64,000 nt of DNA from a virus, in the IMG/VR virus record IMGVR_UViG_3300017730_000002, positions 1 through 64,000 of that record; one strand, written 5' to 3'. A model generated the notes under the pieces. That model ran no database searches. It was not told the origin of the DNA and worked only from the letters and a program-made list of their open reading frames with translations. Below are positions 41,688-42,374 of this stretch, in pieces; position 1 is the stretch's first letter, and each line of letters begins with the position of its first letter. The translations under genes were made by a program, and so were the position numbers.

Positions 41688-42374
41688 ACTATAAGATAAC
41701 AATATCTGCGGACATTCCCAAGTGTAATGGATCTACGGAGGTAGAAATGTTCTATGCAAGACATTGTAGTGACTCTTGTATCAGATGGCCCCCACCACCT
41801 ACCACCCTGTTGGTACCCCCCTATGATTTGTACAGGAGAATGTGTTTTTGCTGACACAAAACCAAAAAAGCATGCTGCTGAGAAAAGTTTAGCAGGGTTG
41901 TGCAAGGTGCAAGACACAGTGGTGCTTTGTGTTGTGTAGTTTCTTTTTGTTTAGTTTGTAGATTATCCTCTGTCACATGGATTAAGTTCCATAACAAGAT
42001 AAGACTGTAAAGTCCAGTATAAAGCAAACTCCTAAGCCCTACAAGTTGAAATCATATACACTTGAGGGCTTTCTTTTTTTTTAGTTTGTAAAGTTTTATA
42101 CTATTCAAAGAAACAATCACCTTGTGTGCACAAGTGGGTGGACAGCATTGTTGAGAAGAGTATATGTAATTAGGGACAATGTACAGTAAGGTACATCCCT
42201 TTCTTTTTTTTTAGTTCTGAGGTGCAATGCAAACCTCCCGCTAAAGCACTTAGCCTTTAACACACACATAAGGGGAGGAACATTCTCAGACGTGAGAGAA
42301 AACAATGGTTAAGGCCCATTGTTTTTTTTGTGTTGTTTCTTTTTTTTTAGTGTTGAACTTTTAAAACCCATACT

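What the first reader, a model, noticed from the sequence alone, without database searches (positions are those of the whole stretch)
41940..42350. Three tandem ~130-nt non-coding structured units at the head of the early region
Seen: the T-tract motif recurs at 41941, 42071, 42201 and 42337 (spacing 130, 130, 136 nt). The intervening sequences are unrelated to each other and lack a credible ORF, yet each can fold into a multi-stem body plus a 3' hairpin. Unit 1: AGTTTG..CAAACT closing stem, ATGGA/TCCAT, GAC/GTC, then AGCCCT-CAAGT..ACTTG-AGGGCT. Unit 2: TATACT/AGTATA, AACAAT/ATTGTT, CTTGTG/CACAAG, then AGGGA..GTAC/GTAC..TCCCT. Unit 3: GTTC/GAAC, GAGGT/ACCTC, GCTAA/TTAGC, then AAAACAATGG/CCATTGTTTT. 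In units 1 and 3 the fold begins at the A ending the motif. Inference: a constant-length array of distinct phage small RNAs expressed first on infection, for example RNA decoys against host defences (compare type III antitoxin mimics and RNA anti-CRISPRs). I do not recognise this architecture from described systems.
Basis: partly seen in the sequence, partly recalled or inferred. Interest (0 to 1): 0.82.

Follow-up and report, generated by a model that had tools for sequence, protein, structure and literature searches.

The report
ORF-less early cassettes, crAss-like phage
The three ~130-base units are real, self-contained promoter-to-terminator cassettes at the head of a 12-cassette early-gene array in an uncultured crAss-like phage. 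Only the first looks like a conserved folded small RNA, the second looks like a mini-gene with a damaged start codon, and the third is conserved but ambiguous.

Summary
The motif and its spacing are confirmed. TTTC-N9-A[G/A/T]T occurs 12 times, all on the + strand at 41940-45017, and nowhere else in the 109-kb genome at one mismatch or fewer. The phage is a distant crAss-like phage with a giant DFDID protein.

Each motif copy opens one cassette that ends in a hairpin plus T-tract. Seven cassettes hold one mini-gene each. Four are ORF-less: the three reported, plus a fourth at 42572-42694.

Four metagenome relatives carry the same array, with whole cassettes gained or lost exactly at motif copies. 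This is the layout of the PeSL promoter/terminator cassettes of T4-type phages.

- **Unit 1** is in all four array heads recovered. Its body folds better than shuffles (z -2.6). All base pairs are kept, with one compensatory change. It is a good small-RNA candidate.
- **Unit 3** is conserved, but its body folds no better than chance and its closing stem breaks in relatives.
- **Unit 2** is unique to this genome and unstructured. It has ATT at the canonical start position, followed by 28 open codons.

The constant length does not hold in relatives (81-170 nt). No match to Rfam, and no ToxI-like repeats. A decoy function is untested.

This scan has already reported similar cassette arrays, and one RNA cassette, in other crAss-like phages.

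The parts
41940..41955 (+). Motif copy 1 (TTTC-N9-AGT, with a G interrupting the T-run); candidate early promoter of unit 1
   Evidence: No significant terminator hairpin lies upstream (z -0.2). The same G-interrupted variant travels with unit 1 in L101, L102 and L103.
41953..42032 (+). Unit 1 body: closing stem from the motif's A, three nested helices ending in the AUGGA/UCCAU hairpin, and a side hairpin
   Evidence: Body z -2.62 and MFE frequency 0.24. All 24 body pairs are kept in 4 of 4 genomes, with one U-A to C-G compensatory change and one U-A to U-G change. P(no broken pair) is 0.01-0.03 by simulation.
42034..42071 (+). Unit 1 terminator hairpin (12 pairs, 13-nt loop), running into the T-tract
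   Evidence: -14.3 kcal/mol, z -2.9. Invariant in 4 genomes.
42070..42085 (+). Motif copy 2
   Evidence: 0 mismatches.
42083..42171 (+). Unit 2 body, holding an ATT-initiated 28-codon frame (42103-42189, stop TAA in the terminator loop); likely a dead or non-canonical mini-gene
   Evidence: Body z +0.57. Translation. ATACTAT at the canonical leader position and ATT at +20. No homologue in any fetched locus.
42172..42200 (+). Unit 2 terminator hairpin
   Evidence: -10.7 kcal/mol, followed by the T-tract.
42200..42215 (+). Motif copy 3
42213..42294 (+). Unit 3 body: 5' hairpin GAGGU/ACCUC, hairpin GCUAA/UUAGC, variable middle, hairpin CUCA-GACG-UGAG
   Evidence: Present in 4 genomes. Body z -0.01. 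The local hairpins are mostly kept without compensatory change, and the closing stem is broken. Indels of 1, 4 and 9 nt.
42295..42329 (+). Unit 3 terminator (14 pairs plus T8), separated from the next motif by GTGTTG
   Evidence: -13.9 kcal/mol. Stem invariant in relatives.
42336..42351 (+). Motif copy 4, heading the 57-aa gene cassette
42375..42548 (+). First conserved early gene (57 aa), with ATG at +26 from the motif's A
   Evidence: changes mostly at third codon positions; 63-66% identical homologues head the early arm in L106 and L107.
42559..42710 (+). Motif copy 5, the fourth ORF-less unit (42572-42694) and motif copy 6
   Evidence: longest ATG ORF 2 aa; body z +0.54; no homologue.
42875..45017 (+). 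Six further motif copies (42875, 43007, 43414, 43896, 44469, 45002), each heading a one-gene cassette of 28-139 aa, except the last, which opens an ORF-poor stretch

Best explanation
Units 1-3 are three self-contained early transcription cassettes at the head of a 12-cassette array in a distant crAss-like phage. The array follows the PeSL layout: a composite terminator-plus-promoter element at each gene boundary, as in T4-type phages.

Each cassette starts at a phage-specific, fixed-geometry motif (TTTC, nine mostly-T bases, then A). I infer this is the early promoter, most likely read by the injected virion RNA polymerase, with transcription starting at or just after the A. Each cassette ends at a GC hairpin plus U-tract, which I infer is an intrinsic terminator. 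ORF-less cassettes would therefore give discrete RNAs of about 115-135 nt.

The three units are not equivalent:
- Unit 1 is a conserved, structured small RNA. Its 5' end pairs with nt 74-80, and the terminator follows an invariant 33-nt core around the AUGGA-UUAAGU-UCCAU hairpin. It probably acts in trans as a stable RNA.
- Unit 3 is a conserved ORF-less cassette with local hairpins only. It is either a loosely structured small RNA or a decaying mini-gene.
- Unit 2 is a strain-specific cassette derived from a mini-gene, with ATT in place of ATG.

Whole cassettes are gained and lost by recombination at the shared motif.

Shown: motif statistics, cassette anatomy, cassette-bounded indels, and the fold and conservation of unit 1. 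Inferred: promoter and terminator activity, which polymerase reads the motif, discrete transcripts, and any trans function.
For: - **Motif.** There are 12 + strand copies in 3.1 kb, none elsewhere in the genome and none in the reversed control. The C-to-A distance is fixed even when the T-run is interrupted, here and in relatives.
- **Motif is more than a terminator tail.** Copy 1 has no upstream + strand gene and no significant hairpin. Copies at 42336, 42695, 43896, 44469 and 45002 sit 6-12 nt after a separate terminator T-run.
- **Terminators.** 13 terminator-like sites were found against 2.7 expected.
- **Coding cassettes.** Each has one ORF, with ATG at +19 to +27 (one at +38) from the motif's A.
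- **Cassette shuffling.** Relatives L101-L104 share the array but differ by whole cassettes bounded by motif copies. L101, L102 and L103 lack unit 2; L103 has an extra 127-nt unit; L102 and L104 have an 81-nt unit; L104 has a 170-nt unit.
- **Unit 1.** It shows 4-5% substitutions against 9-15% at third codon positions of the adjacent gene (Fisher p 0.015 in two of three comparisons).
- **Virion polymerase.** A 4572-aa ORF has DFDID at residue 2310. Its flanks hit only crAss-like phages, including an annotated RNAP catalytic subunit.
- **Precedent.** The crAss-like phage phi14:2 makes abundant early non-coding RNAs, and its early genes are read by the virion RNAP.
- **A separate RNA cassette.** The 170-nt ORF-less cassette of L104 is a conserved structured RNA also found in the distant L106, with 3 compensatory pairs of 23.
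Against: - There are no expression data.
- Only four sequences in two clades are available, so covariation rests on one compensatory event. The column-shuffle control is not significant (78 of 500).
- The bodies of units 2, 3 and 4 fold no better than shuffles.
- In unit 3 the ATG at +14 is in frame with a shared NLPLKH..AFNP reading in L102 (24 aa) and L103 (13 aa), which hints at a former mini-gene.
- Divergence is low (5-10%), so a dead cassette could persist by chance.
- In phi14:2 no common motif was found upstream of early transcripts, so a virion-RNAP promoter motif is unproven for the group.
- PHROGs and PDB sequence searches did not recognise the RNAP core.
Confidence: 0.55

Rival explanations
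1. All three units are non-functional relics. They are empty or decayed mini-gene cassettes left by recombination between the repeated motif copies, and they persist only because the genomes compared are close.
For: Unit 2 has the mini-gene leader with ATT for ATG. Unit 3 has frame-shifted versions of a possible short ORF. The bodies of units 2, 3 and 4 are no more stable than shuffles. Units 2 and 4 are absent from every relative. A 132-nt cassette of the same size class is coding.
Against: Unit 1 has no open frame of 15 codons or more from the leader window (start offsets +12 to +31 tested). It has a significant fold and keeps all pairs, including a compensatory change. It changes less than neighbouring synonymous sites. 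Units 1 and 3 are retained with intact motif and terminator in all four array heads recovered.
Confidence: 0.2
2. The units work in cis or at the DNA level. Either they are tandem strong promoters that load the injected polymerase on the first DNA to enter, like the A1-A3 promoters of T7. Or unit 1 is a put-like RNA that makes the polymerase that transcribed it read through the terminators of the array.
For: The units sit at the very head of the early arm, before the first conserved gene, which is the first gene in the distant relatives L106 and L107. Twelve terminators in 3 kb would call for some read-through device. Unit 1 is a compact multi-helix RNA directly behind the first promoter.
Against: Each unit has its own strong terminator, which tandem loading promoters do not need. 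The spacings (127-149 nt) show no helical phasing. There is no similarity to any Rfam family. In L103 another unit precedes unit 1, so unit 1 is not always first.
Confidence: 0.1
3. One reading: the units form an array of early RNA decoys against host defences, such as CRISPR-repeat mimics or type III antitoxin mimics.
For: The units are predicted to be early, autonomous and ORF-less. The cassettes are accessory and swap between strains, as anti-defence genes often do.
Against: There is no hit to any Rfam family at E up to 1; from my own knowledge, Rfam includes CRISPR direct-repeat and antitoxin RNA families. There are no tandem repeats of the ToxI type, and the units are unrelated to each other. 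Two of the three units lack a significant fold. The host and its CRISPR repeats are unknown.
Confidence: 0.07
4. The motif is only the U-tract of terminators followed by an AT-rich leader. The region is one polycistronic transcript from an upstream promoter, and the units are attenuator-rich spacer.
For: In six of twelve copies the T-run directly abuts a GC hairpin, and terminator-like sites are enriched.
Against: Copy 1 has nothing to terminate and no significant hairpin. Five copies follow a separate T-run. A slippage-prone U-tract would vary in length, but the C-to-A distance is fixed at nine in all copies here and in four relatives. Other lineages of the group have a different, non-T-tract motif at the same place, ATACAGCTTT or AACAACTCTTACTAT.
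Confidence: 0.08

Closest known systems
PeSL (promoter-early stem-loop) cassettes of T4-type phages (Arbiol et al. 2010, PMC2839356; Comeau et al. 2014, PMC4122927)
   Same: A composite terminator stem-loop plus early promoter is repeated at each boundary of small non-essential genes in a plastic early region. Close relatives differ by whole cassettes exchanged at these repeats.
   Different: PeSL promoters match the host sigma-70 consensus. Here the motif is a fixed-length pyrimidine tract ending in A, with no sigma-70-like or Bacteroidota-like boxes, and the phage has its own virion RNA polymerase. The PeSL text read here describes ORFans and known genes next to PeSLs. Here four of eleven cassettes have no ORF.
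Abundant early non-coding RNAs of the crAss-like Cellulophaga phage phi14:2 (Drobysheva et al., bioRxiv 10.1101/2020.03.07.982082)
   Same: These are ORF-free stretches in the early arm of a crAss-like phage. In phi14:2 they are transcribed from the earliest time point at high level, and the early genes are read by the injected RNAP.
   Different: The phi14:2 regions are long (0.6-1.7 kb), lack a repeated motif and show no sequence similarity to this region. ARAGORN calls one of them a tmRNA. Here the units are ~130 nt, each with its own motif and terminator.
Early promoters of coliphage N4 read by its injected virion RNAP (own knowledge)
   Same: An injected polymerase reads a few phage-specific signals at the start of the early region.
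   Different: N4 promoters are DNA hairpins with a short stem and a 3-nt loop. Here the conserved element is a linear T-rich motif. The upstream hairpins vary in stem and loop (4-13 nt), and none is significant at copy 1. The polymerases are unrelated in fold.
Bacterial and phage trans-acting small RNAs with a Rho-independent terminator (own knowledge)
   Same: Unit 1 has the usual anatomy: about 125 nt, a structured body, then a terminator hairpin and U-tail.
   Different: No target, chaperone or expression is known. There is no significant complementarity within the phage genome.

Membership tests
PeSL-type promoter/terminator cassettes | Repeated composite element (stem-loop terminator plus early promoter) in intergenic positions of a plastic early region | tested here: met
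   12 motif copies, 11 preceded by a hairpin, and terminator-like sites enriched 13 against 2.7. The cassette proteins have no Pfam or PHROG family.
PeSL-type promoter/terminator cassettes | Indels between close relatives are whole cassettes bounded by the repeats (modular shuffling) | tested here: met
   BLAST block ends coincide with motif copies. Cassettes are present or absent among the window and L101-L104.
PeSL-type promoter/terminator cassettes | Promoter part matches the host sigma-70 consensus | tested here: not met
   Sigma-70-like sites are not enriched (16 against 20 expected), and none lies at a motif copy. The motif is TTTC-N9-A.
PeSL-type promoter/terminator cassettes | Demonstrated promoter and terminator activity | not testable with these tools
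   This needs reporter or transcript mapping experiments.
Type III toxin-antitoxin antitoxin RNA (ToxI-like) | Tandem direct repeats of one ~36-nt unit, next to an endoRNase toxin gene | tested here: not met
   No tandem repeat other than T-runs. The units share only the motif. No ToxI-type family among Rfam hits. The neighbouring proteins were not scanned against PADLOC.
RNA anti-CRISPR (CRISPR-repeat mimic) | Sequence and fold of a CRISPR repeat of the host's system | tested here: inconclusive
   No Rfam match, which covers its CRISPR direct-repeat families, at E up to 1.
Structured non-coding RNA (generic criteria) | Fold more stable than dinucleotide shuffles | tested here: met
   Met for the unit 1 body only (z -2.62). 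Not met for the bodies of units 2, 3 and 4 (z +0.57, -0.01, +0.54).
Structured non-coding RNA (generic criteria) | Covariation that preserves base pairs | tested here: inconclusive
   Unit 1: no broken pair in 36, with one compensatory and one wobble change in 4 sequences. Simulation gives p 0.01-0.03, but the column-shuffle control is 78 of 500. Unit 3: no compensatory change and some broken pairs.
crAss-like phage with virion RNA polymerase | Giant virion-module protein with a DFDxD motif (I or V at the fourth position), and crAss-type terminase and capsid | tested here: met
   DFDID at residue 2310 of a 4572-aa ORF. Its flanks hit only crAss-like phages, including a 'putative RNAP catalytic subunit'. 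TerL is ~25% identical to crAss-like and Flavobacterium FpV phages. PDB and PHROG sequence searches did not detect the core.

The most novel reading that the evidence does not exclude
The first products of the injected crAss-type polymerase in this lineage are dedicated small RNAs (unit 1, perhaps unit 3). They would act before any phage protein exists, either neutralising a host function or defence, or, in cis, making the polymerase read through the terminators of the array. The TTTC-N9-A motif would then be the first defined promoter of a crAss-type virion RNAP.
Probability: 0.15. Interest if true: 0.8.

Novelty: new variant of a known kind. Interest (0 to 1): 0.45.

Why it matters
crAss-like phages are among the most abundant phages known. 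The promoters of their injected RNA polymerase are still undefined, and the abundant early non-coding RNAs seen in phi14:2 have no known function.

This locus offers a compact test bed. It has a sharply defined candidate start signal, clean terminators, and at least one conserved ~125-nt RNA whose ends are predicted to the nucleotide.

It also shows that ORF-less cassettes in such arrays are a mixed bag: a real RNA, a dead mini-gene and an ambiguous case. That should temper readings of similar 'small-RNA arrays' elsewhere.

Tried and rejected
- **Known RNA families.** Rfam at E up to 1 gave nothing credible: no hit on 40000-46000, only chance-level hits far below gathering score on relatives L102-L104 and L106, and one on 44900-48500. 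ARAGORN found only tRNA-Arg at 56053.
- **DNA similarity to known phages.** None for 41000-46000.
- **Relatives via the neighbouring 293-aa and 139-aa proteins.** One 99%-identical fragment that stops short of the array, and nothing else.
- **Capsid relatives.** There are more than 590, but the 20 longest lack the motif, and their early heads differ.
- **IMG/VR scans.** Scans for paired motifs and for the unit 1 and unit 3 cores found nothing.
- **GTDB genome scan for paired motifs.** It found only two unrelated Prochlorococcus stretches.
- **Covariance model of unit 1.** No distant homologue in 160 kb of held loci.
- **Antisense targets in the phage's own genome.** Longest matches are 13-14 nt, at chance level.
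- **Unit 4 as a member of the L104/L106 RNA family.** The alignment is not convincing.
- **Shine-Dalgarno-like GGAGG.** It is enriched in ORF-less cassettes (4 in the array against 1.2 expected), but the spacing to start codons is wrong and it sits in stems, so I read it as stem material.
- **Partner proteins.** No TROVE/Ro60 or other RNA-binding partner among 20 + strand ORFs.
- **Helical phasing of cassette lengths.** None.

Full report
**What the window is.** The window is the first 64 kb of a 109,286-nt IMG/VR virus record. Structural genes lie on the - strand up to about 41.7 kb. A + strand arm starts at 41.9 kb and runs into helicase, UDG, DnaB-like and AAA_24 genes. The large terminase is ~25% identical to those of crAss-like phages and Flavobacterium FpV phages. 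The capsid protein hits a PHROG major-head family. Outside the window, a 4572-aa ORF carries DFDID at residue 2310. The 700 residues around that motif hit only crAss-like phages, including an annotated 'putative RNAP catalytic subunit'. PHROG and PDB sequence searches did not see the core. I therefore read this as a distant crAss-like phage with a virion-type RNA polymerase.

**The observation.** TTTCTTTTTTTTTAGT (two mismatches or fewer) gives 16 matches in the window against 0.9 expected. Twelve are on the + strand between 41940 and 45017. At one mismatch or fewer, the whole genome has ten copies, all in this stretch and all forward, with none in the reversed control. The units between them share only the motif. 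They have no ORF of 25 aa or more on the + strand, and their longest ATG ORFs are 2, 11 and 5 aa.

**Anatomy of the array.** The motif has fixed geometry: TTC, nine bases that are nearly all T, then A followed by G, A or T, then T. Single interruptions of the T-run occur at different places, but the length never changes, here or in relatives. Eleven copies are preceded by a GC hairpin. Terminator-like sites are enriched (13 against 2.7). The three unit-end hairpins have -14.3, -10.7 and -13.9 kcal/mol.

The motif is not just a terminator tail. Copy 1 has no + strand gene and no significant hairpin before it. Five other copies follow a separate T-run by 6-12 nt. Seven cassettes hold exactly one ORF of 28-139 aa. 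The ATG sits at +19 to +27 (once +38) from the motif's A, four times in the context TACTATG, and the stop lies in or next to the hairpin.

**Relatives.** Protein-based and DNA-based searches of IMG/VR gave many capsid relatives (88-97% identity) but no second copy of this array head. One scan of metagenome contigs for two motif copies 105-135 nt apart found four related contigs, L101-L104. They carry the same motif at every cassette boundary but different cassette sets:
- Unit 1 and unit 3 are in all four array heads recovered (window, L101, L102, L103).
- Unit 2 and the fourth unit occur only in the window.
- L103 has an extra 127-nt ORF-less unit before unit 1.
- L102 and L104 have an 81-nt unit.
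- L104 has a 170-nt unit.

BLAST block ends coincide with motif copies. More distant lineages of the same phage group keep the layout (hairpin, T-rich stretch, lineage-specific motif, 30-45-nt leader, ATG) with other motifs, ATACAGCTTT or AACAACTCTTACTAT. In L106 and L107 the 57-aa gene that follows unit 3 here is the first early gene. Units 1-3 are thus lineage-specific additions ahead of the first conserved gene.

**Unit 1.**
- The 80-nt body folds with z -2.62 (2 of 200 shuffles) and a dominant MFE structure.
- The consensus fold of four sequences has 36 pairs and none is broken. One pair changes from U-A to C-G, and one from U-A to U-G; the latter wobble supports the + strand as the RNA strand.
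ACUG/CAGU is the conserved alternative.
- I placed the eight observed substitutions at random on the window sequence. This leaves all pairs intact in 2.7% of trials with the 20 pairs predicted from the window alone, and in 1.0% with all 24 body pairs. Adding a compensatory pair brings this to 0.3-0.5%.
- The tool's column-shuffle control is not significant (78 of 500). With two clades this is expected.
- Unit 1 differs at 4-5% of sites between clades, against 12-16% at third codon positions of the adjacent 57-aa gene (p 0.015 in two of three comparisons).
- A 33-nt stretch around the AUGGA-UUAAGU-UCCAU hairpin is invariant.
- No frame of 15 codons or more opens in the leader window, start offsets +12 to +31.
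- Indels of 2 and 1 nt fall in unpaired positions.

**Unit 3.** It is conserved, but differently. The 5' hairpin (GAGGU/ACCUC) tolerates 1- and 4-nt loop insertions and a G-U change. The second hairpin has one mismatch in L102. The middle is variable, with a 9-nt insertion in L101. The CUCA-GACG-UGAG hairpin and the terminator stem are invariant. The body is no more stable than shuffles (z -0.01). The whole-unit z of -3.3 reflects the terminator and pairing with the downstream motif.

The ATG at +14 opens 5 codons in the window and L101. In L102 and L103, insertions of 4 and 1 nt put it in frame with a shared NLPLKH(S/L)AFNP reading, 24 and 13 aa long. This may be chance, or the trace of a decaying mini-gene.

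**Unit 2.** It has no homologue anywhere, and its body has z +0.57. It carries ATACTAT, the leader context of three coding cassettes (18 copies on the whole + strand), exactly at the canonical place. ATT stands at +20 where ATG is expected, followed by 28 open codons ending at a TAA in the terminator loop. Its first 29 nt are identical to the start of the L104 170-nt unit. I read it as a mini-gene cassette with a lost or non-canonical start.

**Other ORF-less cassettes.** The fourth unit of the window (z +0.54), the L103 extra unit (z +0.52), the 81-nt unit (z -0.79) and a 127-nt unit of L095 (z -0.32) are unremarkable. The 170-nt unit of L104 is strongly structured (z -3.69). It shares a 23-nt identical core and three compensatory pairs with an element in the distant L106. 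It is absent from this genome. So real RNA cassettes exist in these arrays, but not every ORF-less cassette is one.

- There is no Rfam match at E up to 1, no ToxI-like tandem repeat, and no significant complementarity to the phage's own genome.
- The host is unknown, and kin genomes cannot be drawn for a virus record. CRISPR-repeat mimicry therefore stays untested.
- Constant length is not a property of the family. ORF-less cassettes range from 81 to 170 nt, and 132-134-nt cassettes encode a conserved 28-aa hydrophobic peptide.

**Mechanism.**
- *Shown:* a strand-specific, region-specific, fixed-length motif at every cassette start; terminator-like hairpins at every cassette end; cassette-wise gain and loss among relatives; a conserved, significantly folded unit 1.
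- *Inferred:* the motif is an early promoter read by the injected polymerase; the hairpins terminate; ORF-less cassettes give discrete RNAs; unit 1 acts in trans.
- *Alternatives considered:* relic cassettes, cis or DNA-level roles, decoys, and terminator-only spacer. These are weighed in the rival explanations.

**Comparison with what is known.**
- The closest published architecture is the PeSL of T4-type phages. PeSLs are composite sigma-70 early promoters and stem-loop terminators that flank ORFans and mediate modular shuffling. This array shares the layout and the shuffling, but not the promoter type.
- phi14:2 gives the precedent for abundant early non-coding RNA in a crAss-like phage. 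No common early motif was found there, and ARAGORN calls one of its non-coding regions a tmRNA.
- Earlier notes of this scan describe similar cassette arrays in other crAss-like phages, and one ~135-nt RNA cassette. Other readers noted the 12-copy motif of this genome. These agree with my reading, but they are not independent evidence.

**Limits.** There are only four sequences for units 1 and 3.

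Noticed in passing
window 42572-42694: A fourth ORF-less cassette (spacing 136 nt) lies between motif copies 5 and 6. Its 5' and 3' ends form a long interrupted stem whose 3' half carries GGAGGAGGUGG. 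It has no homologue in any relative, and its body z is +0.54.
   Followed up: partly
window 41700-41830: About 130 nt of the divergent intergenic region (GGACATTCCCAAG .. GGTAGAAAT .. CCCCCACC .. GGTGGTACCCCCC) are conserved in G001, L101-L103, L106 and L107, although the flanking genes differ. This could be a control, origin or packaging element.
   Followed up: partly
L104:6890-7055 (-) and L106:4528-4702 (+): This is a conserved structured RNA in an ORF-less early cassette. It has a 23-nt identical core with a CCAA-GGAGG-UUGG hairpin, closing and 3' helices with 3 compensatory pairs, and z -3.7. It has no Rfam match and is absent from the window's genome.
   Followed up: partly
window 45002-46431: After the last motif copy comes a 1.4-kb ORF-poor stretch that is 94-98% identical in L104. 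It has no Rfam match. Other readers flagged it as a candidate large RNA. Other lineages also have 450 nt or more with only short ORFs after a late motif copy.
   Followed up: no
L010 (phi14:2, NC_021806) 4031-4500: ARAGORN calls a tmRNA (tag GSSVQKLAMVA) inside the g005-g006 intergenic region. The 2020 preprint describes this region as a highly transcribed early non-coding RNA of unknown function.
   Followed up: partly
L093, L095, L097 (motif ATACAGCTTT) and L106 (motif AACAACTCTTACTAT): Other lineages with 88-89% identical capsid proteins use different repeated motifs at the same position of their early cassettes. This fits a signal that co-evolves with a phage-encoded polymerase. I did not test it against the polymerase sequences.
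   Followed up: partly
window 42907-42993: A 132-nt cassette encodes a 28-aa hydrophobic peptide (MKTVGLDTF...). It is conserved with one substitution in L104.
   Followed up: no
window 42274, 42666, 42669, and the L103 and L104 ORF-less units: GGAGG is over-represented in ORF-less cassettes: 4 in the 3.1-kb array against 1.2 expected, 3 of them in ORF-less units. It mostly lies in stems or loops, not at a working distance from start codons.
   Followed up: partly
G000:C1:81906-95624 (outside the window): The 4572-aa DFDID protein also matches PHROG families for alkylated-DNA repair (residues 3238-3389) and an unknown family (residues 3426-3568), C-terminal to the polymerase motif.
   Followed up: no
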